Shown piece after piece: positions 238-17,822 of a stretch of DNA of 18,667 nucleotides (positions are counted from its first letter, which is position 1; each line of letters opens with the position of its first letter). The notes beneath the pieces were generated by a model, which was not told the origin of the DNA, made no database searches, and was given only the letters and a program-made list of their open reading frames with translations. The DNA comes from Clostridiales bacterium (GTDB taxonomy: Bacteria; Bacillota; Clostridia; Lachnospirales; WQUN01). Location: contig JAISZB010000069.1 of NCBI GenBank assembly GCA_031269465.1, forward strand, positions 1 to 18,667, given 5' to 3'. The translations under genes and the position numbers were made by a program.

Positions 238-715
238 AGCCTTATTTTTCAAGGCTTTAGGGGGTGATATGTTAAATAACTTGTAAACTCCCGCTATGTA
301 GCAGCTTGAAATTATAGGTCGTTTTTGAGAGGAAAAAGATGACAAAACAGCATTTTTATATCAGGGCCGGAAGCGACGCCGCCAACGGCGAATTTCCGCG
401 GATCCTCGCCTGAAACGTCGGCTGCCGCCTCGAGCCTGGCATATTGGGGATAATCTAGGGCATCAAGCGAAAGCGCGGTCAAAACCGGTGTTTTCGTCGC
501 GCCCCTGCCGCGCTTGCCGCCTTTTTCGGGAGTCCCGAAATAGGCCTCGTCCATATTTGCATGTAGGGATCTGTGAAAGAGTTTGAGGATGATGGACATT
601 TTGCCAGGTGCCATTTGGCCGGTACTTTGGGAAATGAAAGCGTGATGGGGAATGAGAGTGACTGATACTGTGCTTTGTAAAAAAATTGAAAAAATTTTGT
701 GCACCAACAGGTTTT

Positions 716-1368: not shown

Positions 1369-1459
1369 AGCAAGTCTGTTTTCTTAGCGCGGTGTAAAAC
1401 AGGAAAGAAAATTTAGCAGGGCGGTGAGTCGCAGTTTGGCTTACCGTCCTATCTATACT

Positions 1460-1594
1460 GATTTGCATTGATAATTCCGATTTTGGAGCATTAGTGTACA
1501 GAAAATGCGAAATGCCGGTATCGGCATTTCGTACCTAGAAAGTGGATAATCAAGCTCCAAAATAGGTGATTTGACTGCAAATCGGCATAAATGC
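1460..1594. repeat. Composite nested-hairpin repeat, copy A
   Basis: Left segment GATTTGCATTGATAATTCCGATTTTGGAGC aligns with 17726-17757 of copy C. Hairpin module CGAAATGCCG-gtat-CGGCATTTCG (1508-1531) aligns with 14731-14760 of copy B. Right segment GGATAATCAAGCTCCAAAATAGGTGATTTGACTGCAAATCGGCATAAATGC (1544-1594) is ~85 % identical to 17771-17822 of copy C. Confidence 0.6.
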
Positions 1595-2104
1595 TAGATG
1601 GGCGGGCAGATAAGTCAGGGCGTCTGTCAATCTTGGCTTTAGCTTATACGGGTGGGATTGTTGCAGGGAGATTCCGCCGCCCATAGCGACCCGCCATAAA
1701 TTGACCTGCATTGAATATTCTCGGCATGCATTCATCTCGCCAACTTTCCATTTGGCGCTCTAAAGGACGGGCAAAGGGGAGTGGAGCGGTCTTGAGATGA
1801 AACTCAGAAATGCATAATACAAATGAACAGCATAAGCATTCCGCCAATTGCTGGGGAAGTTGGGCGGCAAAGGTCTTTTCATGACCCATAAAGACGAACC
1901 TCTTTGGCCTTTATCATTTCAAGCAAGGCTTTGCGCCTCTTTGAAAAGCTGAACGATAGAAAAGCCGGCCTACACTGGTTCAGGAAACACAAGCTGGAGG
2001 CGAATCTTTTAGTTTATGCCGCCTAGCCAACATAGTCTTGATGAGTTGGCGTTAGCTCAACCAGCTTATCCTTTGCAATTTTAAAGCCAACTCAAAGCTC
2101 TGCT

Positions 2105-2136
2105 AAAAACGCCTGCCATAATCGGAAGGCGTTTTT
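2105..2136. terminator. Bidirectional rho-independent terminator-like hairpin
   Basis: AAAAACGCCTGCC-ataatc-GGAAGGCGTTTTT: a 13-bp stem (12/13 pairing), a 6-nt loop, an A-run on one side and a T-run on the other. It lies ~300 nt downstream of the stop of the minus-strand SPFH gene. Confidence 0.45.
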
Positions 2137-2443
2137 AGGCTGAAGGATGGATTCCTGCAAAATATAAGCGCGGAAGAAATCGAAGAACTCATCGTGGTGC
2201 TGAACATTTACGCAGCTTAAAATCCCTGCATCCATCAAATTCGTTTTCGCTTTGCTCGAGTGAAGGCAGAGGCAGAAATTACGCCGCTTTGACAGCCATG
2301 CATCCAAAGGCTCAGTCGGAGGCAAAGACAATCTGCTCGGAGCAGCCGGTAGAAGAGCTTCCACTGAAGGCTGAAGGCTACAGAGAGTCTTGCGCATGAC
2401 GCAAGGCAATCGCCGGTTCGCCGCAATCTGAAAGATCCAGCGT

Positions 2444-5008
2444 TCAAGCTTGCTTGAAGACTGCGGCAATCTTATCCAAAAGGTCTTCTCCTCCTGAGAT
2501 GTTGACGTTGCCAATCTTCTCGCAAACTGTCTTGAGGAGCTTTTCACGGTACTCCATTTCTTTTAGGCGCATCAATGTCTGGTTTTCTTCCATCATTTTG
2601 GCCGTATTCAGCAAGCTTCTGGTAGAGGCCACTTCCTCGCGCCGCGTAATGACATTGGACTGGGCTTGCTTTTCGGCTATAAGCACCGAGTTCATCATTT
2701 GGCGGATCTCTCCGGGAAGGATTATATCCTTTACCCCTGCGTCATAAAATTGAACAAAAAGCTCTGGCTCCTTTTCCTTCAGTCGGAGGAAGATAAAGTC
2801 GCTTATCTGGTCTTTGTTCTCCAACAATTCGTCCAGGCGAGCGCGGCCTACGCTGTCCCGGAGCGCCAACTGCACAATGCTGTGTATTTGCTCCTCGAAA
2901 TTGAGAATCTCTGTGCCAATCTTTACATAGTCGGTGATCTTGAAACGGCATACGCAGTTTATCCGCAACTGAACTTTATCCAGCGTAAGGATCTCCTGTC
3001 CTTGAATCTGCAACTGGGTAAGGCGCGTATCTACCAGCTCCACTCTCACGGATACGCCGTTGTTCCAGAAATAGTACGTTCCCTCATCGAGCAGTCGGAT
3101 GAATCTGTCGTTGTAATACAGACGGCCTTTTTGGTAATCCTTTACTTCTTCAAGTTTATACAGGTTATCAGACATCAGCTCGAAAATGTAATATGGTATG
3201 TCATCGGATATCAGTGGTTCGCGTATATCTATCATTTTGAAATCATGCTGATCTTTCAGCTTCCAAAATGCGTAGCGTCCGCTGGGCAACGCATCTGCGA
3301 AGCGGTTATTGCGGTAATGGAGAGCCACGGTTTCATCTGGCACTTCAAGCGGCTGCATTTCATCAGCCAACGCTTGGTCGGCCAAGTAAACGTCAAGGTT
3401 GTACTCCTTTGGGGAAAAAACGGAGTCCGTATTTACCTTGCTGCATGTGAAGCCGTTGCCAAGGAAGGCGTGCCTTCCCGGCTCAAGCATGTTTTGAAAT
3501 ACGCCGTTGTTGAAAAGAAAGCCGCGCTCATTGTCGTTAACTGAGAAAACTTTCAGCTCTTTTGACAATACAGGGTCTTTAAGAAATACATCTAGGCTAC
3601 GGCCTCCAGTGTCAAACGCCTTGCCGGCGGGCATCGAAGAGACGCTTCTGCTTCTGCCGAAGAAGATATGCCTGCCGGGCCTGAGCGTCCCGACAAACAA
3701 TCCTTCTTTATATAATGCTCCGAGGCAGTCATCCTCCACCTCAAAAACCTGCACCTCAGACGAGAAAACCTCATCTCTTAGGTATATATCCGTTTCGCTT
3801 GATTCAGGTATAAATTCTTTGTCTATGTCAACGTTCTTGCAAGTCCATGATTTGCCGAGATACGCGTGTTTTCCTGGTTTAAGGTACTTTTCAAACAAGC
3901 GGTTTTTATACAACACTCCGCGTTCGCCTTCAGAGATGACGTATATATGCAGAATTTCAGCCAGCTTAGGATCTTTAAGATAAATATCTGAACTGTACTT
4001 CTTAAGTTCAGTCTCCATTTCATATTGCTCTACACTAAAGGTTCGCCCGAGAAAGGCATGTCTGCCAGGAGGCAGCATTTTGACGAATAGTCCCGATTTA
4101 AACAAAAAGCCTCGCTGAGTTTCGTAGATTTCAAACACTTGAAGTTCTTCAGCAAGCTCGGGATAGCTTAAAAATACATCCAAAGGCGCGGATTTTGGAG
4201 AGAATTCAGCTTCAATCCGGGCAATTTCATAAGTAAAACCCTTGCCCAGATACGCATACTTGCCGGATTTGAATGATCTGATAAATTTGCCGTTTTTAAA
4301 GACTAGGGCGAACTCACCGTCCTTAACCTCGATTGGCAGCAAGAGTTTCGCTATGGCCGGATCGTGAGTGAAAATATCGATATCGTGACCTGCCGGCGCA
4401 AAGCGGTCATCCATGTTGACCCATACAATGCTGAAGCATTTGCCCAAATAAGCATGCTTGCCCGGAGAAAGCATTTTTTCAAATCGACCGTGCTTAAACA
4501 GGAGGCCTCTCTGGCCTTCCGGAATGTCAAATACTTGAAGTTCGGCAGTGAGATCGGGATCCTTGAGGAATACATCTACAGAGCCGTTTTTCGGCGCAAA
4601 GACACTGTCAGCTTCAACAATTTCGATTGTCCGACTTTTGGTCGCAAGCGCAACATCTCCAGGCTTAAGCAGTCTGGTGAATCGGCCGTTTATAAATAAC
4701 AGCCCTCGCTGATTTTCAAATATGCGGGTGAACATCGAACCCCAACCTTTCCTTAAGGATTTCCACAACGGCGCATTCAACGCATTTGTTTTATGCGATT
4801 TACCTAACGGCGTTGCCGGCTGCCCATGCGGCCTGACAGGCTGCGACGCTTCCAACTCATGCTGTTTGTCAATAGTTGAAGGCTGATCGCCGCTTTTCTG
4901 AGTCTGGGCTGCTCTTAAACATTTAAGAAGGCGAAGCAGCAACTTTCGCTGGAGTTCAGATTCGCAATCGGCCACCGGATCCCATCCTTTCAAAAATAAA
5001 TTTTCCAT
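2444..5008 (-). CDS. SPFH/band-7 (stomatin/prohibitin/flotillin/HflK-C) domain protein with a 9-unit N-terminal tandem repeat array; 854 aa as called
   Basis: Single 854-codon ORF.
- C-terminal third (aa ~625-800) is a canonical SPFH core: GRLYYNDRFIRLLDEGTYYFWNNGVSVRVELVDTRLTQLQIQGQEILTLDKVQLRINCVCRFKITD…IVQLALRDSVGRARLDELLENKDQI…DAGVKDIILPGEIRQMMNSVLIAEKQAQSNV. Compare stomatin QEILTKDSVTISVDGVVYYRV…LAQTTLRNVLGTKNL…WGIKVERVEIKDVKLP…AAEAEA. An Ala/Glu-rich coiled-coil-like tail follows.
- aa ~97-660 consist of nine tandem units with exact 65-67-aa periodicity, starting at aa 97, 163, 229, 296, 361, 426, 493, 558 and 624. Each has the form [D(I/V)(F/Y)L(K/R)DP.L..EL.VF.(V/I)]…(Q/E)RG.LFK.G.F…L.PG(K/R)HA(F/Y)LG..F, which is the pattern of the first β-hairpin of an SPFH domain. 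The last unit is the true start of the SPFH core.
- No hydrophobic N-terminal anchor.
- No strong SD at the 5008 ATG. An alternative start at 4732 (MFTRIF…) has AAGGAAAGG 10 nt upstream. Confidence 0.85.
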   Translation of the reverse strand: MENLFLKGWDPVADCESELQRKLLLRLLKCLRAAQTQKSGDQPSTIDKQHELEASQPVRPHGQPATPLGKSHKTNALNAPLWKSLRKGWGSMFTRIFENQRGLLFINGRFTRLLKPGDVALATKSRTIEIVEADSVFAPKNGSVDVFLKDPDLTAELQVFDIPEGQRGLLFKHGRFEKMLSPGKHAYLGKCFSIVWVNMDDRFAPAGHDIDIFTHDPAIAKLLLPIEVKDGEFALVFKNGKFIRSFKSGKYAYLGKGFTYEIARIEAEFSPKSAPLDVFLSYPELAEELQVFEIYETQRGFLFKSGLFVKMLPPGRHAFLGRTFSVEQYEMETELKKYSSDIYLKDPKLAEILHIYVISEGERGVLYKNRLFEKYLKPGKHAYLGKSWTCKNVDIDKEFIPESSETDIYLRDEVFSSEVQVFEVEDDCLGALYKEGLFVGTLRPGRHIFFGRSRSVSSMPAGKAFDTGGRSLDVFLKDPVLSKELKVFSVNDNERGFLFNNGVFQNMLEPGRHAFLGNGFTCSKVNTDSVFSPKEYNLDVYLADQALADEMQPLEVPDETVALHYRNNRFADALPSGRYAFWKLKDQHDFKMIDIREPLISDDIPYYIFELMSDNLYKLEEVKDYQKGRLYYNDRFIRLLDEGTYYFWNNGVSVRVELVDTRLTQLQIQGQEILTLDKVQLRINCVCRFKITDYVKIGTEILNFEEQIHSIVQLALRDSVGRARLDELLENKDQISDFIFLRLKEKEPELFVQFYDAGVKDIILPGEIRQMMNSVLIAEKQAQSNVITRREEVASTRSLLNTAKMMEENQTLMRLKEMEYREKLLKTVCEKIGNVNISGGEDLLDKIAAVFKQA
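3031..4726 (-). repeat. In-frame tandem array of ~198-bp (66-aa) units inside the SPFH gene: 8 full copies plus a 9th merged with the SPFH core
   Basis: Protein-level periodicity listed above. The units are divergent at DNA level, so the array is ancient rather than a recent slippage expansion. Confidence 0.7.
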
Positions 5009-5989: not shown

Positions 5990-6870
5990 GCCGACGCGCT
6001 CGGCGAAGTTGAAGTCGAGCCTGATTTTAAAGGGATCTCATCGGATCTTCGCGAAGAGGCGGCGGAAGCGCCGGATCCGCGCCAGTCCGCCAAAGCGGCC
6101 CGCCGGCTCCCGGACATGCCCGTCGCGGCACTGCTCGCCATTTTGCGAGGCGCGAACCCTTGGGGCGGCCTCGCGAGATTCGCCGGCGCCAACGCTGCTG
6201 GGATCCGCTTCTCCGCGACAGGCGACACGTTTCAAAACACATTTTCAAGAATCGACGACAACATTATTCTCAGGCATCTGGGCGGCTTCTTAAGCCGCCT
6301 GTCTCAGGCGGCCTCGCAAGCAAGGCGGAGGCCCTGCCAGCTGCCTGCGACACCTTCCCCGAAGAAATAATGCGCATTTCGCGCGACCGAAAGGAAAATG
6401 TCGGATCAGGGAAGGGCGGCGCAGCGAAAGCCAACATATCGGGCGCGTACGACTCCAAAACCGGTGCTGTTCCCGTCAGGGGCTAATCAACGCGAAAACC
6501 GATGAAACCGCGGCGATTCCGGCGCTGGTCGACCATGCCGGCGAAGCCGCGCGAGGATCCATGTCCGCATGGGACGCGCCGGATGCGACGGACAAGAACG
6601 CTAAGAAGGCCATTGAAGCCGGGACGAGCTGCGTTTAGGCGCTCAAGGGCGGCGCAGCGCGCATTTTCAAGCGAAACTGCGATATATTATGGCTGTCGGG
6701 ATAGAGGCCGGAACGGGGTGCGTCGAGATATTGAAAGACGGCATCCCGGCCATCCGCTGGGTTGCGAAAAGAGGCTGAGCGGACTATTTTGCGGCAGCCG
6801 GCATTTCGCGCTCCTGCAACTCGGATAAATAGGCCGAGTCGGACTCCATCCGCAGTTGGAGATGCAGTCC
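5990..6870 (+). mobile_element. ISAs1-family (H-repeat-like) transposase remnant, multiply frameshifted, GC-rich; boundaries approximate
   Basis: Matches the ISAs1 N-terminal pattern (…DPR…H.L.DIL…GA..W.DI..FG…FENGIPSHDT..RVFSRIDP…) in the frame of ORF 5975-6370:
LREEAAEAPDPRQSAKAARRLPDMPVAALLAILRGANPWGGLARFAGANAAGIRFSATGDTFQNTFSRIDDNII.
Matches the ISAs1 DDE-region motifs (SNEITAIP.LL and TIDAMGCQ…ALKGNQ) in other frames, interrupted by stops:
…DSKTGAVPVRG/LINAKTDETAAIPALVDHAG… (6489-6540) and …AWDAPDATDKNAKKAIEAGTSCV*ALKGGAA (to ~6660). Confidence 0.5.
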
Positions 6871-7090
6871 ATCAAAGCGGCGGAACTGCATATTCATTCA
6901 GGCAGATTTTGTCCTCTTCATACGTCATGGAGGAAATTTCAATGTCCACAAGGCTCCACAGGGGAGAATACCGATATTTAAAAAATACCTTCCATTTCTT
7001 AAAACCCATAAATAACGGGGCATTGCCAATTGCTTTATCGATATTAAGAATCAGGAGAAAACCATAATAGCCATCATAAGGCGGCGGGAA

Positions 7091-8300
7091 ATGAACGCAG
7101 AGGAATTCACAGGGAAATTCAACCTTGAAATTTCCAAGTTCGGCTATAAATCCAAGACTCAAAATGCGTACTTGAAACGCTGCAAAGAAATAATGTCTTT
7201 TATGCAACTGGAAGACATTCAGCTTTTCACGGAGGAATCCCTGGAAACATGCCTTGACTGTTTGCGGATTCGGTGCTATTCAGGCGAAATAAAGCCTGCC
7301 GCCCGCAAAATCCCGCGGAGGGCCGCCAGGCTCATGCATGAGCTCAAAGAAAACGGATCGCTGGAGCGGCGCGCCATGGCAGATGGGAAAGCTTTCAAGC
7401 CGACAAGCATGAAGGGCGCATATGAGGAGTTCATCGCATCCGCCTCAAAGCGGCCAGCGCCATCCACTATGCAGGACTTCAGGATCTGCGGCCGCAAGTT
7501 CATCGCGTTTTTGGAAGGCGCAAACCGCGCGGATTTCGAGAATTCCTGCGCCAAGGCCTTGAAGGATTGCATTTTCTTCATGGCTTCATCAAGCAAGCTT
7601 AACGGCTGTCAAAGATTCATTTATGTCTTGAGGGCTTTCTGCGGCTTCTTGTCCCCGAAGGGATTGATCAAGCCTGAAATGGCCGGGATAATGCAGAAGC
7701 CCGCGGGAAGCCGGAGAGACATCCTGCCATACCTGAAGCGGGGGCATGTCGAGGGCCTTCTTGGGCCGAGCCGACGGCATGCAAAACTGCAAGGGAAACT
7801 ATGCCATGACAGCCTTGCCGGCCAACACGGGCTTGAGGTTCGGCGTGATCAGCGAGCTGAAGCTGACAGGCATAGATTGGCGCGGCAACGCCATAAACGC
7901 ATTTCAAGGCAAAAATTCCCAAGCCAGTCAAGCCCCTCTTGACGCCGCGGCCGGCTATCGCTTCAATGAGCGTCCGCAAGGCAAAAACGCGGAATGCATG
8001 TTCATAAGCTCCCGGGCTCCGCACACAAAGCTGGCCGGAGGGAAGCTCATGAAAAAGCGCTTGGAGAAGGCGGGCCTTTGCGAGGGCGAAAGCGGATTCC
8101 ACGCCCTGGGGCGCGGAATAGCCGCGGATCTTCTTGAAGCCGGCGCGGATCATGAGATAGTTTCCCAGATTGACGGGCATATGCGGCTTGAGTCCCTGGA
8201 TCCCTACTTTGCTGTTGACATTGAAGGCTTAAGGAAAAGGCGCCGCGCCAGCTTCGAGGATCTCGGCGCCCCTGCGTCCAGCTGGGGCGCCAAACCTTGA
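7091..8300 (+). pseudogene. Tyrosine recombinase 1 (RitA-like, ~400 aa if repaired) with one frameshift near 7765
   Basis: - N-terminal ~220 aa are in frame A (7091-7942).
- The catalytic domain is in frame B (7746-8300): LLG-RADGMQNCKGNYAMTALPANTGLRFGVISELKLTGIDWRGNAINAFQGKNSQ…FISSRAPHTKLAGGKLMKKRLEKAGLCEGESGFHALGRGIAADLLEAGADHEIVSQIDGHMRLESLDPYF. This carries the box I region, HxLR, a second His and the catalytic Tyr.
- The frames join at LLG, where a GGGCC run (7763-7767) has one base too many. Confidence 0.65.
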
Positions 8301-8332
8301 AAAAGGATGCGTTTGGAAGCGAATTCGACTAG

Positions 8333-9061
8333 GACTTCGCGGACATGATTGAATGCAAAGCCGCCCTCGGCTTTAAGGAGAGCTCATGCTACGGAAGCCC
8401 GCTCAATTTTGATCGCTTCCGCCTCAAGAGCTTTCCCGGCGAATGCAGCATATCAAGCGAAATGCTGCTTGAATGGCTTGAGCCAAGGCCGAGGGAGGGC
8501 GTCAACGGCGCTGCCGCCAGATCATATTCCGCGGCGGGCTTGGCGAACTGCATCAACGCCATGGGGGGGACGTCGCATGTCCTGCATGCGGGCTATCTGG
8601 GGAAACGCGCCCGCTGCAATCCCTACATGTATTCCGACATGGAGTTGAAGCTGTTCATCTTTGCCACAGACTTGCACGCGCATGCGAAAAACCCTTTGGA
8701 CACCACTGTCCGCGACATCTTCAGGCTGCAGCGCTCCTGCGGGTTGCGGCCTTTCGAGCCGCGCCTGCTGAAGCGCGGCGATGTTGATTTCGAAGGCGAA
8801 ACCATTTATATAGCCGACTCGAGGATGCACAATGCGGGGTTTCATGAAAAGCCTGGGATTTTATTTATGTGCGTGTTACGAAAAAAATACTAACGTTCTC
8901 ATTTCTTGAGGCGCAGTTTCGTCACAAAATGCGTGCACAAGTATCTTTATGAAGGCCCTGTCGATTTCAAGTCCATCATTGTGCATTTCCAAAGATGCCC
9001 GGGCCATGCGAAGATCAGCGAGACACTGTACTACATGCGCCTGGTGCGGAAAGGATCCTGA
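8333..9061 (+). pseudogene. Tyrosine recombinase 2 (RitB-like, short) with an in-frame TAA at 8891-8893
   Basis: Frame-2 ORF 8345-8893 reads …YSDMELKLFIFATD…NPLDTTVRDIFRLQRSCGLRPFEPRLLKRGDVDFEGETIYIADSRMHNAGF…, the box I-like region. In the same frame after the TAA it continues SHFLRRSFVTKCVHKYLYEGPVDFKSIIVHFQRCPGHAKISETLYYMRLVRKGS* (8897-9061), which carries HxxR…GH…Y. So the break is a nonsense codon, not an indel. Confidence 0.55.
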
Positions 9062-9157
9062 TGAGCAAAGGGTTCGACCTGAATTGCACGAAGAGGCGGG
9101 ATCAGTCAAAAAGCCAAAGAGCGAATGCCTTGAGCCGCTGAGGGGCTGCATTTCCAT

Positions 9158-9720
9158 ATGTCTCCCCCGGCGGCGAAAGAAAAGCTCCGCCGCTGCCGAA
9201 AACTGCAAATGCGCGCGGAATGTTTTTTTGACTGTCTCGGAGATGTGGAGAAAATCAGCGTCACGGACATAAGCTTTGATAAAATGGCATTTGGCGTCAT
9301 GAACGGATTCGCGCAATGGATGCTTGAGGCGGGGAAATGCAAGAACAGCTCCGCGAATCAAAGGCTATCGCGCATATGGGCGTTCTGCAGGCGCGCATCG
9401 TTGCGAAAGCCTGCCTGCGGCATTTGCTGCAATGAGGTGAAGAGCGCCGGCTCCTTGGATGCCGGCAAGGGCAGGCAAGTGAAATTCTTTTCCGAGGACG
9501 CTCTCCAAGCCATTTTGGAGCAGCCGGACGCATCCGCCAAAATCGGCTGGGGGATTTCTCCCTCATGCTTCTGATGCATGACGCAGGCGCCAGGGCCGGC
9601 GAAATTCTGAAGTTGAGGCTGCCGGGCATTGAATCCCATTCAAGGGAGCTGATAGTGGGCGTCGAAGGAAAAGGGGGCAAGCTCAGGCAGATCCCCCTTA
9701 TGGATGCAACGTGCGCGTAA
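9158..9720 (+). pseudogene. Tyrosine recombinase 3 (RitC-like): N-terminal core-binding domain plus box I only; frameshift at ~9550 and 3'-truncated at ~9720
   Basis: - 9158-9574 has the SAM-like core-binding pattern: …MAFGVMNGFAQWMLEAGKCKNSSANQRLSRIWAFCRRAS…FFSEDALQAILEQPDASAKIGW.
- The frame then shifts inside a G5 run (9549-9553). Restoring one G gives GDFSLMLLMHDAGARAGEILKLRLPGIESHSRELIVGVEGKGGKLRQIPLMDATCA*.
- No HxxR/Y region follows. The sequence becomes AT-rich promoter DNA at 9721. Confidence 0.6.
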
Positions 9721-9776: not shown

Positions 9777-9833
9777 TTACACTGTCAGGCATGGCTTGGT
9801 ATACTGATTTTCATTGGTAATTTATGGTATAAT
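9777..9833 (+). promoter_or_regulatory. Two candidate sigma-70-type promoters in the AT-rich spacer
   Basis: TTACAC (9777-9782), a 17-nt spacer, then TATACT (9800-9805). A separate extended -10, TGgTATAAT, lies at 9825-9833. No ORF follows for ~190 nt. Confidence 0.3.
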
Positions 9834-10978: not shown

Positions 10979-11080
10979 AGCCTATAAAAACGCCAATGCA
11001 AAAAGGAGCGGACAAGCGTTGCTTGCGGCCTCACGCAACAGCCAAAACCAAAATTTAATCAAGTGGGGGAGCCAATCACG

Positions 11081-11260
11081 ATGAAACAGACCGTGACAAC
11101 GGTGGTTGCGACGCTAAAAAGGGCAGCGCCGTTAAACCTGCGGAAGCGGATTGGTTCCACCACCTACAAGGTGTCAATCCGTTTCAGCGAAACAGCGACT
11201 GAAACACTGGAGGACAAAATCCTCCGACTGATTGAGCGGGAGGCGCAAAATGCTTCCTGA
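11081..11260 (+). CDS. Small hypothetical protein (59 aa) immediately upstream of the serine-recombinase fragment
   Basis: ATG at 11081 with GGGGGAG 9 nt upstream. Protein MKQTVTTVVATLKRAAPLNLRKRIGSTTYKVSIRFSETATETLEDKILRLIEREAQNAS. Co-oriented with the recombinase and 53 bp upstream of it. I recognise no family with confidence; small accessory proteins of serine-recombinase transposons are a possibility. Confidence 0.4.
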   Translation: MKQTVTTVVATLKRAAPLNLRKRIGSTTYKVSIRFSETATETLEDKILRLIEREAQNAS

Positions 11261-11312
11261 CGCCGTTTAATGTGCCGCAAGCGTTCAGAACTGCCGGAAT
11301 CAGGAGGCCGAA

Positions 11313-11689
11313 ATGAACAAGAAAACCACGATTCTCTACGAGCGCTTGAGTAGGGAAGATTCGAGGGCCGATGAAAGTCTGTCCATCGAAAACCAGAAGA
11401 AGATTCTGGAGAAGTACGCTGCGGAGATGGCTTCACGCCATTCTCCCATATCAGTGATGACGGCGCGACCGGAGCCAACTTCAATCGACCCGGCTGGCAG
11501 GAGCTGATCGCCAAAGTCGAGAACGATGTGGTCAGCACGATACTCATCAAGACGATGGACATGATGGGGCGCGATTACCTCCGCGCCGGGCTGTTCCGAG
11601 AGCGCGGGGTGCGCCTGATAGCCGTCGGCGACGGTTACGACAGTTCGCTCGGCGATGACGAGCGTTTACCGCGCCAAAAGATTTTTTGA
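11313..11689 (+). pseudogene. Large serine recombinase, N-terminal resolvase catalytic domain only; frameshift at ~11441 and 3'-truncated
   Basis: AGGAGG lies 6 nt upstream of the ATG. MNKKTTILYERLSREDSRADESLSIENQKKILEKYAAEMASRH contains the Y-x-R-x-S catalytic-serine motif typical of large serine recombinases. After a one-T deletion in a TTT run it continues FSHISDDGATGANFNRPGWQELIAKVENDVVSTILIKTMDMMGRDYLRAGLFRERGVRLIAVGDGYDSSLGDDERLPRQKIF*. The ~350-aa recombinase and zinc-ribbon C-terminal domains are absent. The convergent RidA gene begins 21 bp later. Confidence 0.7.
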
Positions 11690-11709
11690 CGCCAGCAAAT
11701 TCAATTTTC

Positions 11710-12045
11710 ATCAAACCCTAATCTCCCATGTCTGATAAATAAATTCACTGGCTAAAGTCATCATTGCAGGGAAACCGCCTTTATCAAAGCATTCATAGAA
11801 AACGGCACTTGCCTTGACAAAATCCAATAAGTCTAGCAAATACAAATTAATCTGAACCATATCGCTAAACGTTGCGCCTACTGGCACTAAGGTATTCTCA
11901 TGCTTATAAAAGCTGCTCGCATTTGATGTTCAATATCTTTCATGTCAAATCCACCTGCATGGTGTGCAAGAAAGATGAATCGCCCTCGACTACACAACCC
12001 GGACAGCAATATTCGACTAGCTCTCTGCGCGTCATCGATATTCAT
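11710..12045 (-). pseudogene. RidA/YjgF/TdcF-family protein, frameshifted (about 110 aa if repaired)
   Basis: - First frame: MNIDDAQRASRILLSGLCSRGRFIFLAHHAGGFDMKDIEHQMRAAFISMRIP*.
- Adjacent frame: (L)VPVGATFSDMVQINLYLLDLLDFVKASAVFYECFDKGGFPAMMTLASEFIYQTWEIRV*.
- This matches the RidA C-terminal pattern …aGa.l.dVvk.tvyL.d..dFaavN.vY..yF….PAR.av.V..LP.ga.vEIe.iA.
- The frames join if CC (minus strand, ~11891) is read as CCC.
- AAGGAAG RBS. The start codon forms an ATGA overlap with the CPBP stop. Confidence 0.55.
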
Positions 12046-12904
12046 CTTCCTTTGATTTTGTATTTCCCATTAATTAACAAAAGAGCTAAAATTATAACCG
12101 CCGCATATCCGATTACTTCGGGGAAAGAGGCTTCAATTCCGAACGCGCCGCCTGTCAAAAGCACCGATTTTGTTTGCAAGGTATAGGTGAAAATATTGGC
12201 ATTGCGGGGATTAACGCCAATAGTCAATATCTGTCCTATAATGATTAAGTTCCAAATGCCGTGAACGACCGCGCCCGGAAATATAGAACCGCTCTGATAG
12301 CAAATCAGCGAAAACGTTATCGATACACTTGTCCCGGCAACGAACAGCAGCAGAATGTCTAGCAAGTTGGGATTTTGCATATTTGTAAGATGCATCAGTA
12401 CGAAGATAATCGATGGCACGAGAACCGCCGCGATTTTACCGAAATGAACCTCAAGAATCCTCATAACAAAGCCCCTAAAAAGCAGTTCTTCGCCAAATCC
12501 GGCGGCAAGGCAAGCGCTGAATATTGCGCAGGCAAAAATATACTCAATCGTTGCGCTGTCCAAATGCCGATTTGCGAAAACTCCGTCCGCGAAAAATATA
12601 AAGTATAGCGAAACGAGCGCGGGCAGAATCACGGCGACAGGAATCCAAACCGCCCAAGCCCTCGGAGAAGCGGGCTTTTTCACTCGGCAATCTGATAAAA
12701 CTATTTTCAGCGCTTTTCGGCAATACAGGCTGAGCAGCACAAACAACAGCGCGGCACGGACGAGTGCATTCAAAACTTGCGAAATCACAGGGGACGGAAT
12801 GTGAAACGCAAGCGTCGCTATCCCTTGGATAAAACAAATCCGACAATGCCGACAAGCGCGTGAAGCATTGCCTTTGGCGCGGTTAGAATAAATTCTATTT
12901 TCAT
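12042..12904 (-). CDS. CPBP-family intramembrane metalloprotease (CAAX protease / Abi domain), with an apparent frameshift at ~12825
   Basis: The 248-aa ORF (12042-12788) has multiple TM helices and the CPBP motif 1, EELLFRG (…AAGFGEELLFRGFVMRIL…), with later conserved His residues (…LMHLTN…, …VVHGIWN…). Upstream, in frame -1, is MKIEFILTAPKAMLHALVGIVGFVLSKG* (start 12904). Reading one extra A in the AA run at ~12825 joins it as …VLSKGIATLAFHIPSPVISQVLNALV…, a plausible first TM helix. Confidence 0.8.
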
Positions 12905-13050: not shown

Positions 13051-13435
13051 TTATATGCGCGATTGAAATGCGCCTATTTCTTTTGATAGTTTTCGGCACT
13101 TTCTGCCGATATAAAACGCATATCCATAATGCTGTTTATATTGCGAGTGCAGTTCCACTTCGCATTCATCATTCTCGACATAGGCCTCCGCAGTTTTATT
13201 GCCGGAATGCCTTATCAGAAACGCTTTTCCGCTTCTGCTCTGGGTTCGAAATGATTGTCCGTCCAACACTGTTCTGGCAGCTTAAACACAGCTATGGGAG
13301 CATAGCCCGCCCTTTGCATTACTTAAATACTATGCCCTATCGTATCCAATCCGCTGCAGGCATCAGACCAAAATTTCTCGACTTCATCGGCGTGTTCGTC
13401 CGTGAACCAGAAAGGGCAGCTTACATAGCCGTTCA
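13051..13435 (-). pseudogene. Small gene directly downstream of the TetR gene, broken into three frames (36 aa + ~35 aa + 72 aa); product unknown
   Basis: - MNGYVSCPFWFTDEHADEVEKFWSDACSGLDTIGHSI*, whose start lies 2 nt after the TetR stop.
- MQRAGYAPIAVFKLPEQCWTDNHFEPRAEAEKRF*.
- …AFLIRHSGNKTAEAYVENDECEVELHSQYKQHYGYAFYIGRKCRKLSKEIGAFQSRI*.
Together these read like one ~130-aa protein. No family assigned. Confidence 0.25.
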
Positions 13436-13438
13436 TTT

Positions 13439-14153
13439 TCAGAAATCCGTTCCAATGTGCCTCTCCACCATTTTGATGGCTGCCGCCTTGTCCTCCATGC
13501 TGTCGAAAATGTTCATCATCATGTAGATGGGAGAGAAATACTCCAACGCGAGGATATACGGGTCTTTATCGACATTGTGCGGCAACTCCGCCATTTCACG
13601 CATCAAATCCTGCGTGTGGCTGACGCCGCCGCCCGTCAGGCATTGATTCAGCAACTCCGCCATCTCCTGATTCCTGTACTGCTCAATCGTCAGTATTTTT
13701 CGGGTCTTTAAACTTAACTGGGCAAAAAGCAAGAATGCACATGCAAGAACCTTGTAAAATCAGCGTTTGAGTCATTGGATGCAGGGCAGTGCCCGCTAGA
13801 GTTTAAAGACCCTATTTTTCTAAACGGCGCCGCAAATTCATCCTCCGTCCAATAACGGAACTGAGCGACGCTGATCGCCTTGATTTTTTCAAGCGCGGTA
13901 TTGCGGCGCGTTTCCTCCGCATCGGAAAAACCTACTTTCTGCACTCCGAACTCCTTTGCCCGCTGCGCGTCTCGCTCCCGCATACGGCGTACTATGCTGT
14001 CATAGATGTCTTGCTTGTTTTGTAGTGCCTGTACAATGCGCCTTTCGCTATTCCAAGCCGCCCCGCAATCATGCTGGCGGATGCCGCTTCATAGCCGTCT
14101 TTCGCAAACAGCTTCAGCGCCGCAATCAAAATTCTCTCTTTCGTGTTTTCCAT
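13439..14153 (-). pseudogene. TetR/AcrR-family transcriptional regulator (about 199 aa when repaired), interrupted by a 111-bp MITE plus a -1 frameshift in the HTH region
   Basis: - GGAGG RBS, then MENTKERILIAALKLFAKDGYEAASASMIAGRLGIAKGALYRHYK.
- Here an A4 run (~14017-14020) should be A5.
- It continues NKQDIYDSIVRRMRERDAQRAKEFGVQKVGFSDAEETRRNTALEKIKAISVAQFRYWTEDEFAAPFRK.
- Then the MITE.
- Then ILTIEQYRNQEMAELLNQCLTGGGVSHTQDLMREMAELPHNVDKDPYILALEYFSPIYMMMNIFDSMEDKAAAIKMVERHIGTDF*.
- Removing 13702-13820 restores …APFRKILTIEQ… exactly in frame. Confidence 0.8.
13702..13812. mobile_element. MITE-like insertion, 111 bp; 12-bp perfect terminal inverted repeats and an 8-bp target-site duplication
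   Basis: - TIR-L GGGTCTTTAAAC (13702-13713) and TIR-R GTTTAAAGACCC (13801-13812).
- Flanked by the perfect direct repeat TATTTTTC at 13694-13701 and 13813-13820.
- No ORF inside.
- Contains the internal palindrome GGGCAGTGCCC.
- Precise excision with one TSD copy restores the TetR reading frame. Confidence 0.75.
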
Positions 14154-14680
14154 TTCCGGCCTCCATTGCATAAACAGCCTTTTACGGCTATTATAGTATA
14201 CGCTCGTTTACTCGTCTAGAGATTTTAGAGACGGATAATTAAAAAAGAGAAAAGAGAAAAAATAAAAAATATCCGAAATATCCTTGGCAGCACAGTTCTA
14301 AGGCTTTTGGAGTATCAACTATGAGAATTTTTAACTCTCCAGTTCTAAAATATAAACTTTTTCCACGTTTCCTCCTCAGGTGTTTTTGAGGTGGATTTTC
14401 ATACTATCTATTCAGTCCTTATCCAGCATTCGCCATTTTAATCATCAAATAAACCTGACACGGATTTTGCGCTTAAGCTTTTTTGAGTTTGCTGGATGAG
14501 GCCAGCCAAATTCACTTGCACGGCTATTTTGTCAGCGGCGAAGTTTCTGCGGATGCGCCGGTTAACATCCAGAAAGCCGCCGGTCTTCTGTAGGCCGTAC
14601 ATTTGGCTTGCGGGCTAGCCGTGGAAAAGGCCGCTACTATGGTCGCCAGGCGCCGTGAGGCAACCATCGGGTTAATCCAT

Positions 14681-14815
14681 GATTTCTTTGGATTTACGCC
14701 GAAGGAACTTGATTGATTATCCATTGAGTGGTGCGAAATGCCGATATCGCCATTTCGCACTCGCTGTATAGTCAAGCTCCCAAAAAGGCAATTTTCTATG
14801 AAAATCAGCATGTCT
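14681..14815. repeat. Composite nested-hairpin repeat, copy B
   Basis: - Left arm CTTGATTGATTATCC (14709-14722), cf. GGAGCTTGATTATCC in copy C.
- 30-bp near-perfect palindrome GTGCGAAATGCCGAT|ATCGCCATTTCGCAC (14731-14760), cf. the hairpin of copy A.
- Then …GTCAAGCTCCCAAAAAGGCAATTTTCTATGAAAATCAGCAT…, homologous to the A/C right segment TCAAGCTCCAAAATAGGTGATTTGACTGCAAATCGGCAT. Confidence 0.55.
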
Positions 14816-15801
14816 GCCAGAGGCGGCAAAATGGTAGTCTTGCAATGCGGCGGCATAGAGTGCCTCATGCTATACCGGGCGACAATAGAGGAGGCGGAAG
14901 CCTAGAGTAACGGAATTTTGTCGGGGTGCGACTGTCTCCTGAACATAAGATTAAGGTGGAGATTTGCTCTATCTCAAATGCTTTCAAGATAATATCAGTG
15001 GAGAGTTTGAGAAGATGGCATAAGCTTGCAAAGGAAGGAATATGATAGACCGTGTATGCCTAAAGAACTGATGATGGGACTTAATCGAGAGTCTAAGTTC
15101 GGAGAGCATCCATCTCAAAGGATATTATTCTAAATATAGTCGCAATCTAAAGCCAAGCCCAAAAATAAGGACTTGCATCAGTATAACTGCTCGCAGGGTG
15201 GAAAAGTGCATCAGCAGCTTATAGCTGGTTGCATTAGTTGAGTGATGGCTTCGGAAAATGTGGACATTGGGAAGTGGAGCTTCTCTAAGGGCAATAGCAA
15301 GGGAATGAGGAAAGTGTAGAAGCGCTAAAAGTTCATTTGCAAAAACAATTCCCAAGAGATTATTTTCTATGGTTCCCCAAGAAGCGCTTCTTGGCGGAGG
15401 GTTTCTTCAGGGGCCAAGGCGGATAAGCTTTGGACGGCATAGGTTGAATTAGTGCCTGAGGCCGTCCTCGCTGCAGCAATTGTTTTACTTCTAAGCCGCA
15501 GCAAACGGGATGGATATTATTCACGCAGATTACTCAGCTAAATATAGAAAACAGCAGTATCGGCTGCCGCCAGAACGAAATCAATCATGGCTGATTTATC
15601 AAAATAAGCGAACGATTCTATGCCGCAATTTTTTGCGCTTGCAGAAGAGTTGAAAACATGAATATACGGCTAGACTTTCGCAACTCTGCCCGCTGTACTC
15701 TGCAGTTCGCTGCATGTTGATTCCTTATGGCAGATTTTTCGCTTTTTGCATAGAGGCTTTCATCAGTTTTTTCGCCGTTGCCAGGGGTCATGGAGGTAAA
15801 T

Positions 15802-17568
15802 ATGGAAGAAAATTTCGAAGATTTGCTTGACCGTATGCTTACAGCTCTGCATGCCGCTGAAAAGAGACATCGGGCGGTTCGAGACAGCGCATCCGACAGC
15901 AGTAATTGGAGCGCCTACGACAATGAAGTTAAATTTATTTCTGACATAATCAAATGGCGAAGAGACTTAGAGCCGCTTCGTATGCATATTGTCAGTTCCG
16001 GGGCGGTAATCGTCGAGGATGTTCCTCAAGCTGCTGGTTCATCTGACAAAGAGCCCGTTCCAGTCAGCGTTGAGGATGATCCCGCGGCCCATCGCTTCGA
16101 CGATGAGCGCATAGGGCGTTATGTAAGGCGGAAAATGAAAGATTTGAGCAATGCGGGGTTTGCGTTCCCGGCTGAAGGCATTGCGAATCTGCAAAATGCC
16201 CAGTGGTGCTTTCAGGTTCTAAATATAGCGCACCCTTTCTTTTTGCAAACAACACAGAAAGCGACTCATTATTGGAAAAGTGATATTTTTATATTTAACG
16301 GCAGGTCATTCCGCCTCTGTATGGAATGGTACAATGATCTGTATAGGGGCCGCAGCCAGCGCGAATGCTTCGACAACTGGTATAATAGCCTATCCATTGA
16401 TACAAGTTCCGAGTCTTTTAAAGACGGCGAAGAAATCAGAATCGGCGAATATATTCGCAGCAAACTCCGAGAGTTGAGCAACAGCGGGTTTGCATTTACT
16501 GAAGATCAGATAAAGCAGCTAGGTGATGTAGAATGGAGCAGTGTGACATTTGCCAAGAAATCTTTTTTGCCAATTGCGAGAATTGCAAAGAGAAATCAAG
16601 ATATTAGCCTGCAAATAAGAGACGATAGAGGTAAAGTCAGATATTGGAATGAGTTGTTTTCTTTCGGAAAAACTGACTTGCTGTTTACTAACAGATGGAA
16701 ACTGCGGAATAGGGAGAGCTTCGATAGGTGGTACGAAAAACTCTCGCAAGTTGAAAAAACAATTGCGGCTGATACCCTTATATTTAGAAAGACTGTGAAC
16801 TGGTCTATGCTGAATTACGGATTTTCAGTGCCAGCATCAAATTGGGGGCTTTTATTTGACGCGATAGGGGGAGCTGTTGATAGGGCCGCCGGTCGGAAAG
16901 TATCTGTGGATGTAGCAGGCGTAAGTTGTACAGCGCTTGTTTCTTGTTCAGTGAGCGGAAATAAAAAGACGGTTCAAATACGCTATCCTCAGAACAGCGG
17001 CATACTATCTTATCTTAGAGAGAGCTTTGCTGATATTTACGCCTATTGCATTCAAGAACGCAACCTTCACGGCAAGGACAGGCGCATTGACATCCCCTCC
17101 GATATGGAAGGAAGCATAAGCATTTACGCGGCAAAAGAGCAGAAAGCACTGAGAATTGACTGCGGATCTCATAAGATAGGAAATGGCGTTGAGGCGCAGG
17201 CTGAAACGGTAATTATTCATGCTAAATCACAATTTAATGGGGATGGCATCGTAGAGGTTTCTAATTCTTTTGTTCCGATTTTGAAATTCCCAGACAGAAA
17301 TTTTATTATTTGCGCCAAGCTTAATGCGGATGCTCAATCGGTTTCGTTTAGAGCTGAGGCGGAAGGCAGCCCGCATGCCGAAAAATCTCTCACGGTCGCC
17401 CATCTAAAAGAAGTCGCTCTGCTTGAAAGGAGCAAACGCATTCATCGAGTCGCTGTTCCAGAGAGCGTGAATGTCAGAAAGAAAATGATGTTTATGGCGT
17501 GGATTGACCCTCCGGGGATTAACATTCAGGAAGAAACGCCAATATCCCAACCTTTGGAAGAGCCCTGA
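15802..17568 (+). CDS. Hypothetical protein, 589 aa (596 aa from the upstream ATG at 15778), with two ~100-aa internal repeats; no recognisable domain
   Basis: The long ORF is the only open frame on either strand here. GGAGG lies 5 nt upstream of the ATG at 15802. Repeat 1 (aa ~106-205) is DDERIGRYVRRKMKDLSNAGFAFPAEGIANLQNAQW…FNGRSFRLCMEWYNDLYRGRSQRECFDNWYNSLS. Repeat 2 (aa ~216-323) is GEEIRIGEYIRSKLRELSNSGFAFTEDQIKQLGDVEWS…FTNRWKLRNRESFDRWYEKLS. The shared motifs are IG.Y(V/I)R.K(M/L)(K/R)(D/E)LSN.GFAF and (E/R)(C/S)FD.WY..LS. The C-terminal ~270 aa are non-repetitive. Confidence 0.75.
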   Translation: MEENFEDLLDRMLTALHAAEKRHRAVRDSASDSSNWSAYDNEVKFISDIIKWRRDLEPLRMHIVSSGAVIVEDVPQAAGSSDKEPVPVSVEDDPAAHRFDDERIGRYVRRKMKDLSNAGFAFPAEGIANLQNAQWCFQVLNIAHPFFLQTTQKATHYWKSDIFIFNGRSFRLCMEWYNDLYRGRSQRECFDNWYNSLSIDTSSESFKDGEEIRIGEYIRSKLRELSNSGFAFTEDQIKQLGDVEWSSVTFAKKSFLPIARIAKRNQDISLQIRDDRGKVRYWNELFSFGKTDLLFTNRWKLRNRESFDRWYEKLSQVEKTIAADTLIFRKTVNWSMLNYGFSVPASNWGLLFDAIGGAVDRAAGRKVSVDVAGVSCTALVSCSVSGNKKTVQIRYPQNSGILSYLRESFADIYAYCIQERNLHGKDRRIDIPSDMEGSISIYAAKEQKALRIDCGSHKIGNGVEAQAETVIIHAKSQFNGDGIVEVSNSFVPILKFPDRNFIICAKLNADAQSVSFRAEAEGSPHAEKSLTVAHLKEVALLERSKRIHRVAVPESVNVRKKMMFMAWIDPPGINIQEETPISQPLEEP

Positions 17569-17725: not shown

Positions 17726-17822
17726 GATTTGCATATGAAAGTTGCGGATTATGGAGCTTGATTATCCAACGGATAATCAAGCTCCATAATCGGTGCATTT
17801 GACCGTAAATCGGCATATATGC
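17726..17822. repeat. Composite nested-hairpin repeat, copy C (base form without the inserted hairpin)
   Basis: GATTTGCATATGAAAGTTGCGGATTATGGAGC followed by the perfect 15-bp palindrome GGAGCTTGATTATCC-aac-GGATAATCAAGCTCC (17753-17785), then ATAATCGGTGCATTTGACCGTAAATCGGCATATATGC. Same orientation as copy A, ~16.2 kb away. Confidence 0.6.

What the first reader, a model, noticed from the sequence alone, without database searches (positions are those of the whole stretch)
13694..13820. 111-bp MITE with 12-bp perfect TIRs and 8-bp TSD precisely interrupting a TetR regulator
Seen in sequence: GGGTCTTTAAAC…(87 bp, no ORF)…GTTTAAAGACCC, flanked by TATTTTTC direct repeats. Deleting the element plus one TSD copy restores the TetR reading frame (…AAPFRK|ILTIEQYRN…) with no scar. 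This is the signature of a recent transposition rather than decay.

Inference:
- The insertion should inactivate the repressor and derepress its target. The target is probably the co-transcribed small gene just downstream, and possibly the adjacent CPBP-RidA operon.
- An 8-bp TSD points to an autonomous partner from an 8-bp-duplicating IS family (for example IS256, ISL3, IS1595 or IS66-like).
- The partner must be present, or have been present, elsewhere in the genome.
Basis: seen in the sequence. Interest (0 to 1): 0.6.

Follow-up and report, generated by a model that had tools for sequence, protein, structure and literature searches.

The report
Small transposon in a dead TetR gene
A 111-bp non-coding mobile element really did jump into a TetR repressor gene, but that gene and its operon carry at least four other lesions, so this is an ordinary insertion in decaying DNA and not a regulatory event.

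Summary
An element at 13702-13812 (111 bp) has perfect 12-bp terminal inverted repeats, GGGTCTTTAAAC/GTTTAAAGACCC, extendable to 23 nt at 83%. It is flanked by an 8-bp duplication, TATTTTTC. Removing it with one duplicate rejoins the TetR frame (FRK|ILTIEQYRN) with no gap against 14 homologues. Homologous loci at about 80% DNA identity carry the 8-mer once, which is a true empty site.

- The TetR gene also has a 1-nt deletion near 14017-14022.
- A roughly 400-bp deletion removed its 3' end and the first 126 codons of the next gene.
- The "small co-transcribed gene" is a fragment of that truncated methyltransferase. The remnant also has an in-frame stop and a frameshift.
- The nearby RidA-like gene is frameshifted too.

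Derepression therefore has no intact target.

I found no second copy and no parental IS in GTDB species genomes, JGI metagenomes, IMG/VR, PLSDB or phage records. The source genome (Clostridiales MAG, locus tags LBU32_) could not be retrieved. The only IS remnant in the contig is IS1595-like, and a fuller copy in a related metagenome contig has unrelated ends.

Verdict: a genuine but ordinary MITE-like insertion in a pseudogene. Its family is unassigned and its multi-copy status is untested.

The parts
13694..13701 (.). Target-site duplication, copy 1 (TATTTTTC). In gene sense it reads GAAAAATA and covers codons R112-K113-I114 of the TetR gene.
   Evidence: single copy in homologous loci L002/L003
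13702..13724 (+). Left terminal inverted repeat. It has a perfect 12-bp terminal box GGGTCTTTAAAC (13702-13713), a 6-nt variable stretch, then an inner box GGGCA.
   Evidence: (I8)
13702..13812 (.). The 111-bp non-autonomous element. It has no transposase and 45% GC, and folds as a hairpin through its TIRs.
   Evidence: no Rfam match; longest ORF touching it is 30 aa
13790..13812 (-). Right terminal inverted repeat. It has an inner box TGCCC, a 6-nt variable stretch, then a perfect 12-bp GTTTAAAGACCC (13801-13812).
   Evidence: (I8)
13813..13820 (.). Target-site duplication, copy 2 (TATTTTTC).
13439..14153 (-). TetR/AcrR pseudogene, the host of the insertion. The likely start is ATG 14153, after GGAGG. 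The gene is interrupted at codon 113/114 by the element and frameshifted after codon 45. Homology to the family ends near 13451-13455.
14017..14022 (-). 1-nt deletion in or next to an A4 run (sense CACTACAAAA-CAAG), relative to L002 and L003. It shifts the frame after Y44-K45 and gives a stop 14 codons later.
14190..14218 (-). Sigma-70-like promoter match (TAGACG-17-TATAAT) upstream of the TetR start. It is a consensus match only.
13099..13466 (-). Remnant of the downstream UbiE-type methyltransferase gene, residues 127-251 only. It has an in-frame TAA at 13323-13325 and a frameshift near 13220-13250. The deletion junction with the TetR 3' end lies at about 13455-13466.

Best explanation
The element is a non-autonomous, MITE-like DNA transposon. 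It consists of two IS-type ends and 65-87 bp of non-coding filler.

Inferred mechanism: a DDE-type transposase supplied in trans bound the bipartite 23-bp ends. It cut the AT-rich target TATTTTTC with an 8-bp stagger and joined the element. Gap repair then duplicated the 8-mer.

Shown: the insertion sits in codons 112-114 of a TetR/AcrR gene and adds 119 bp. Translation would run into the element and stop after 32 foreign codons, losing the C-terminal ligand-binding/dimerisation half.

The insertion is one of at least five lesions in a decaying TetR-methyltransferase operon:
- a 1-nt deletion in TetR;
- the insertion itself;
- a ~400-bp deletion fusing the TetR 3' end to mid-methyltransferase;
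- a nonsense codon in the methyltransferase remnant;
- a frameshift in the methyltransferase remnant.

The contig is full of broken genes. The insertion is therefore most likely neutral, tolerated because the locus was dispensable, with no regulatory output. The order of the lesions is unknown. The partner IS is unidentified, and it is not the IS1595-like element whose remnant lies in this contig.
For: - TIR and TSD anatomy.
- No simulated 12-bp IR pair had a flanking repeat longer than 5 bp.
- The protein alignment has no gap across the junction.
- Empty sites in L002 and L003 carry a single copy of the 8-mer.
- No coding capacity and no RNA-family match.
- 1-nt deletion relative to two homologous DNAs.
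- In homologues the TetR gene starts an operon and overlaps the start of the next gene: methyltransferase/FMN_bind/Flavodoxin_5.
- Window 13466-13099 matches only residues 127-251 of that methyltransferase, with an in-frame stop and a frame change.
- Other broken genes in the contig: RidA-like, tyrosine and serine recombinases, and an ABC ATPase.
- The IS1595 remnant and its unrelated ends.
Against: - No second copy of the element and no IS sharing its ends was found anywhere. 'MITE' in the strict multi-copy sense, and mobilisation in trans, are both inferred.
- The source MAG could not be retrieved, so these negatives do not cover the one genome that matters.
- The single-base frameshifts could in principle be assembly errors. 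The nonsense codon and the ~400-bp deletion cannot.
- The order of lesions is unknown. The insertion could have been the first, inactivating hit.
Confidence: 0.75

Rival explanations
1. In-situ remnant. A full-length IS inserted here, making the 8-bp TSD, and later lost its interior by deletion in place. The 111 bp never moved as a miniature element and may be single-copy.
For: - No other copy was found in any collection or elsewhere in the contig.
- The locus demonstrably suffers deletions: the ~400-bp TetR/methyltransferase deletion and an IS1595 copy reduced to 202 bp.
Against: - A deletion that spares both ends precisely and leaves only ~65-87 bp is a special outcome.
- The rest of the source genome was not searchable, so 'single copy' is not established.
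Confidence: 0.2
2. A recent insertion is the inactivating event for a working repressor and derepresses the downstream small gene and the CPBP-RidA genes.
For: - Perfect TSDs and perfect 12-bp ends suggest little change since insertion.
- A promoter-like site upstream of TetR is still recognisable.
- The CPBP ORF (12042-12788) is uninterrupted and has an Rce1-like domain.
Against: - A frameshift lies upstream in the same gene.
- The 'small gene' is an internal fragment of a truncated, nonsense- and frameshift-bearing methyltransferase.
- RidA is split over two frames.
- In the three homologue operons with a readable downstream region (L003, L006, L007), the co-transcribed partners are methyltransferase, FMN_bind and Flavodoxin_5 genes, not CPBP/RidA.
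Confidence: 0.08
3. A chance inverted repeat plus a chance direct repeat, or a metagenome assembly artefact.
For: 12-bp inverted repeats alone are common. The contig comes from a MAG.
Against: - 0 of 1517 simulated IR pairs had a flanking repeat longer than 5 bp.
- The interruption is exact at the codon level against 14 homologues, and two homologous DNAs show the empty site.
- Misassembly does not create target-site duplications.
Confidence: 0.02

Closest known systems
Bacterial MITEs (non-autonomous IS derivatives; for example the IS1595-, ISL3- and IS6-derived MITEs listed in PMC3852290 Table 4 and PMC7986276)
   Same: - Size about 100-300 bp.
- Terminal inverted repeats.
- No transposase.
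- Flanking direct target repeats. PMC3852290 Table 4 lists DR 8 for an IS1595-derived MITE and DR 7 for an ISL3-derived one.
- The IS6 family makes 8-bp repeats and has MITEs (PMC7986276).
   Different: - No second copy and no cognate IS were found, so family membership and mobilisation in trans are unproven.
- The ends match nothing in any searched collection.
IS1595-family element with a remnant in this contig (fuller copy in L008, ~2002-3231)
   Same: - From my own recollection of ISfinder, IS1595-family elements make 8-bp duplications.
- Remnants are present in the same contig (353-554) and, from protein records, possibly on other contigs of the same MAG.
   Different: - Its ends (ATGAGTCTCCAGTTTGATCAG..., 67-nt imperfect TIR) are unrelated to GGGTCTTTAAAC.
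- blastn between the two finds only 7-8-mers.
ISL3, IS256, IS6 and IS66 families (8-bp or 8-9-bp duplications; several have ends starting GG)
   Same: - 8-bp TSD, AT-rich target, ends starting GG(G)TCTT.
- From memory, ISL3-family ends often begin GGCTCTT. This is a lead only.
   Different: No ISfinder-type comparison was possible with these tools, and no transposase of these families is in the contig.
Named small repeats with other insertion signatures (Correia/NEMIS, RUP, ERIC, REP/BIME)
   Same: Small, non-coding, hairpin-forming, and sometimes found inside or next to genes.
   Different: From established descriptions, those elements duplicate TA or nothing, and they have their own conserved sequences. 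This element has an 8-bp TSD and unrelated sequence.

Membership tests
MITE (miniature inverted-repeat transposable element) | Small size (tens to a few hundred bp) and no transposase gene | tested here: met
   111 bp. The longest ORF touching it is 30 aa and runs out of the element.
MITE (miniature inverted-repeat transposable element) | Terminal inverted repeats | tested here: met
   12/12 perfect, and 19/23 over the extended arms.
MITE (miniature inverted-repeat transposable element) | Target-site duplication, with an empty site elsewhere showing one copy | tested here: met
   8-bp TATTTTTC on both sides. L002 and L003 carry the 8-mer once at the homologous position. 0 of 1517 simulated IR pairs had a flanking repeat longer than 5 bp.
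MITE (miniature inverted-repeat transposable element) | Several dispersed copies in the genome | tested here: inconclusive
   - No other copy in the 18.7-kb contig.
- None in GTDB species genomes, JGI metagenomes or IMG/VR by end patterns. The only two hits were chance matches inside coding sequence.
- None in PLSDB or phage records.
- The source MAG (LBU32) could not be retrieved.
MITE (miniature inverted-repeat transposable element) | Ends shared with an autonomous IS that supplies transposase | tested here: inconclusive
   No IS with these ends was found. The only candidate available (IS1595-like, L008) does not share them. ISfinder is not available here.
IS1595-family derivative | 8-bp target duplication | tested here: met
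   8-bp TSD. The family's 8-bp habit is from my own recollection. PMC3852290 Table 4 lists one IS1595-derived MITE with DR 8.
IS1595-family derivative | TIR similarity to the lineage's IS1595-like element | tested here: not met
   The L008 IS ends ATGAGTCTCCAGTTTGATCAG... are unrelated, and blastn shows only 7-8-mers.
ISL3 / IS256 / IS6 / IS66 derivative | TIR sequence matching a member of the family | not testable with these tools
   No IS reference library was available. Literature string searches for the TIR found only unrelated primers.
Functional TetR/AcrR repressor gene (host gene) | Uninterrupted ORF with an N-terminal HTH and a C-terminal ligand/dimerisation domain | tested here: not met
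The actual gene has a frameshift after codon 45, the 119-bp insertion after codon 113, and a deleted 3' end.

The most novel reading that the evidence does not exclude
The element is the first sighting of an undescribed IS/MITE family. The family would be active in an uncultivated Clostridiales lineage that is undergoing large-scale gene decay, as many broken genes, IS remnants and a second palindromic repeat family within 18.7 kb suggest. Its parental transposase would belong to a family or subgroup not yet catalogued, which would explain why its ends match nothing in about 600 Gb of reference genomes and the JGI metagenomes.
Probability: 0.12. Interest if true: 0.4.

Novelty: new member of a known kind. 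Interest (0 to 1): 0.22.

Why it matters
As it stands, this matters little. It is a clean textbook footprint of a small TIR transposon in a gene that was already being lost, or was lost along with its operon. Its practical value is for annotation. The TetR fragments, the 37-aa 'gene' and the RidA-like pieces should be called pseudogenes, and no regulatory phenotype should be inferred. If the element proves to be multi-copy in the LBU32 MAG, it would mark transposon activity in a genome that appears to be decaying. It would also give a handle for finding its transposase.

Tried and rejected
1. End-pattern scans with GGGTCTTTAAACTNNANNGGGCA.
- Genome contigs: 1 hit (L001), inside a Rhodospirillaceae coding region with no second end. 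This is a chance match.
- Viral contigs: 0 hits. Metagenome contigs: 0 hits.

2. Paired-end scan with GGTCTTTAAACN{72,102}GTTTAAAGACC.
- Metagenome contigs: 1 hit (L004), inside phage-like structural ORFs, with no TSD and an unrelated interior. This is a chance match.
- Viral contigs: 0 hits.

3. blastn searches.
- The element against plasmids and phages gave nothing.
- The 43-nt left end at E<=10 gave one unannotated 34-nt hit in a Sulfitobacter plasmid (E 4e-3), which I judged unrelated.

4. Six-frame peptides of the element against 5.8 billion proteins gave no hit. There was no positive control, because the contig's own TetR fragments are not in that database.

5. Exact-protein look-ups of window ORFs and of the same-MAG proteins P0121, P0123 and P0127 were all 'not on record'. 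The source genome could therefore not be searched.

6. Rfam at gathering threshold on the whole window, and at E<=1 on 13600-13900, gave nothing.

7. A literature search for the TIR strings found only PCR primers.

8. The IS1595 remnant as partner was rejected on TIR comparison.

9. Flavodoxin_5 and FMN_bind remnants downstream of TetR were not detected. Only the methyltransferase remnant was.

10. tblastn of the IS1595-like fragment against plasmids gave no match.

Full report
**1. The observation**

- TATTTTTC at 13694-13701.
- GGGTCTTTAAAC at 13702-13713.
- An 87-bp interior.
- GTTTAAAGACCC at 13801-13812.
- TATTTTTC at 13813-13820.

The element is 111 bp with 45% GC, against 48% for the window. 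The inverted repeat is bipartite. It has a perfect 12-bp terminal box, six poorly matched positions, then a perfect GGGCA/TGCCC box. That gives 19 of 23 positions complementary (I8).

A 12-bp perfect inverted repeat within 400 bp is not rare on its own. First-order Markov simulations of the window gave 0.76 such pairs per window. None of the 1517 simulated pairs had a flanking direct repeat longer than 5 bp, whereas this one has 8.

**2. Is it a true insertion?**

Removing 13702-13820 joins two minus-strand ORF pieces into ...FAAPFRK|ILTIEQYRN.... A search with the repaired 198-aa protein returned 369 TetR/AcrR proteins. The best are 61-73% identical over 84-98% of the query and about 200 aa long. 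In an alignment of 14 of them there is no gap at the junction, and the surrounding residues are invariant or nearly so (F111, R112, E118, Q119, Y120, R121, N122).

At the DNA level, two homologous loci were informative: L002 (Gracilibacteraceae MAG) and L003.
- They align to the window up to 13703 and again from 13814.
- The subject coordinates overlap by 9 bp.
- In gene sense they read TTCCGAAAAATGCTGACG and TTCCGCAAAATGCTGACG.
- The repaired window reads TTTAGAAAAATACTGACG.

The 8-mer is therefore single-copy in uninterrupted relatives and was duplicated here. No near-identical intact allele exists in the protein database, so the empty site comes from homologous loci about 80% identical in DNA, not from a sister strain.

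**3.

(a) The TetR N-terminus and the rest of the gene are in different frames. Relative to both L002 and L003, the window lacks one nucleotide in or next to an A4 run (CACTACAAAA-CAAG, + strand 14017-14022). Translation from the likely start (ATG 14153, after GGAGG) would stop 14 codons after K45.

(b) Homology to the TetR family ends at ...ERHI, near 13451-13455.

(c) In homologues, the TetR gene is the first gene of an operon, and its stop overlaps the next start.
- L003: TetR, Flavodoxin_5, RsgA.
- L006: TetR, UbiE-type methyltransferase, FMN_bind, Flavodoxin_5.
- L007: TetR, FMN_bind, Flavodoxin_5.

tblastn of the L006 methyltransferase against the window gave two matches.
- Residues 127-211 match at 13466-13218 (58% identity), with an in-frame TAA at 13323-13325.
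- Residues 201-251 match in another frame at 13251-13099.

So about 400 bp have been deleted, covering the last ~10 TetR codons and the first 126 methyltransferase codons. The methyltransferase remnant also carries a nonsense codon and a frameshift.

(d) The RidA-like gene next to the CPBP gene is split over two frames. The joined fragments reach the Pfam cut-off (30.9 against 27.3 bits), while the best single fragment scores 24.7.

(e) Elsewhere in the contig several genes are also fragmented: an ABC ATPase, three tyrosine recombinases and a serine recombinase next to TnpW. The TetR orthologue in L002 is independently frameshifted, and the gene after it is reduced to 59 aa.

The single-base frameshifts could be assembly errors. 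The nonsense codon and the 400-bp deletion cannot.

**4. Consequences**

The insertion adds 119 bp after codon 113. On its own it would replace the C-terminal half of the repressor with 32 foreign residues. With the other lesions present, there is no working repressor to lose and no intact co-transcribed target to derepress. Only the CPBP ORF (12042-12788, Rce1-like) looks intact. It is separated from TetR by the dead methyltransferase. In L003 a CPBP gene lies upstream of the TetR gene and is not under it. No promoter-like or terminator-like site was found inside the element. The order of the lesions cannot be determined.

**5. Looking for copies and a parent**

- Nothing in the contig resembles the ends beyond chance.
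- A 19-base end pattern matching both ends found one chance hit in GTDB species genomes, inside a coding region with no second end. It found none in IMG/VR or the JGI metagenomes.
- A paired-end pattern found one chance hit inside phage-like structural genes.
- blastn against PLSDB and phage records found nothing meaningful.
- The element's six-frame peptides matched no protein among 5.8 billion (no positive control).

A lucky by-product identified the source. A 95-aa ORF of the window is NCBI MDR1537521.1, LBU32_05910, from the MAG 'Clostridiales bacterium', on a contig of 18,667 bp. The window is therefore very probably that whole contig. DNA of this MAG could not be retrieved. The negative searches therefore do not cover the genome where copies are most likely.

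**6. The IS1595 lead**

That 95-aa ORF is a fragment of an IS1595-family transposase (Pfam PF12762, E 0.0076, below the cut-off). Homologues are annotated IS1595 and carry PF12762. Fragmentary relatives, 67-86% identical, appear in the protein records. One of them (LBU32_06535) is from the same MAG on another contig.

A fuller copy in a related metagenome contig (L008, ~2002-3231) has 67-nt imperfect TIRs beginning ATGAGTCTCCAGTTTGATCAG. The window retains only 202 internal bp of this IS (353-554, 90% identity). The 111-bp element shares nothing with it beyond 7-8-mers.

So an 8-bp-duplicating IS family was once present in this contig's lineage, but it is not the partner. ISL3, IS256, IS6 and IS66 remain untested candidates. 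The resemblance of GGGTCTT to ISL3-type GGCTCTT ends comes from memory only.

**7. Verdict**

This is a real, cleanly delimited, MITE-like transposon insertion. It is a new sequence of a well-known kind. It sits in a multi-lesion pseudogene operon of a Clostridiales MAG contig in which many genes are broken. The regulatory inference is not supported, and the partner-IS inference is untested. Interest is low.

Noticed in passing
window 14017-14022 (minus-strand gene): There is a 1-nt deletion in or next to an A4 run of the TetR gene, relative to two homologous DNAs. The gene is therefore frameshifted after codon 45, independently of the element.
   Followed up: yes
window 13099-13466 (-): The C-terminal half (residues 127-251) of a UbiE-type methyltransferase is fused by a ~400-bp deletion to the TetR 3' end. 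It carries an in-frame TAA (13323-13325) and a frameshift (~13220-13250). The 37-aa ORF 13323-13436 is part of it.
   Followed up: yes
window 11711-12045 (-): A RidA-like (Ribonuc_L-PSP) gene is split over two frames. The joined fragments pass the Pfam cut-off, but the single fragments do not.
   Followed up: partly
window 353-554 (-); L008 2002-3231: A 202-bp internal remnant of an IS1595-like element is 90% identical to a fuller copy in a related metagenome contig. That copy has 67-nt imperfect TIRs (ATGAGTCTCCAGTTTGATCAG...). Other fragmentary relatives appear in the protein records: LBU32_06535 from the same MAG, and MDR1541252.1 from a 'Clostridiales bacterium' MAG that may be the same one.
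   Followed up: yes
window 1451-1592, 14713-14826, 17747-17822, partial 9800-9822: A second dispersed repeat family of ~100-145 bp has long palindromic arms (...CCGATTATGGAGCTTGATTATCC / GGATAATCAAGCTCCATAATCGG...). Two copies carry an inner hairpin GCGAAATGCCGNTATCGGCATTTCGC. All copies are intergenic, and none was found in the other fetched loci.
   Followed up: partly
window 7016-9700 (+) and 10988-11700 (+): Three consecutive tyrosine-recombinase genes are all fragmented across frames. A TnpW gene (PF14202, E 7e-15) is followed by a broken serine recombinase. These look like remains of integrative elements.
   Followed up: partly
whole window: The window length equals that of the contig carrying NCBI protein MDR1537521.1 (LBU32_05910, MAG 'Clostridiales bacterium', 18,667 bp). 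DNA look-ups for proteins of this MAG returned 'not on record'.
   Followed up: partly
L002 4294-5108: The TetR orthologue in a Gracilibacteraceae MAG is also frameshifted, at a different site. The gene after it is reduced to 59 aa. A ~60-nt stretch near the TetR 3' end is almost identical to the window.
   Followed up: partly
window 15778-17568 (+) and 2444-5008 (-): There are two long intact ORFs. One is a 596-aa protein with no Pfam family. The other is an 854-aa protein with a C-terminal SPFH/Band 7 domain and internally repeated segments (DNA repeats at 3573, 3969 and 4557).
   Followed up: no
window 6001-6600: A GC-rich patch (62.5% against 48% overall) has overlapping ORFs in several frames and no family match.
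   Followed up: no
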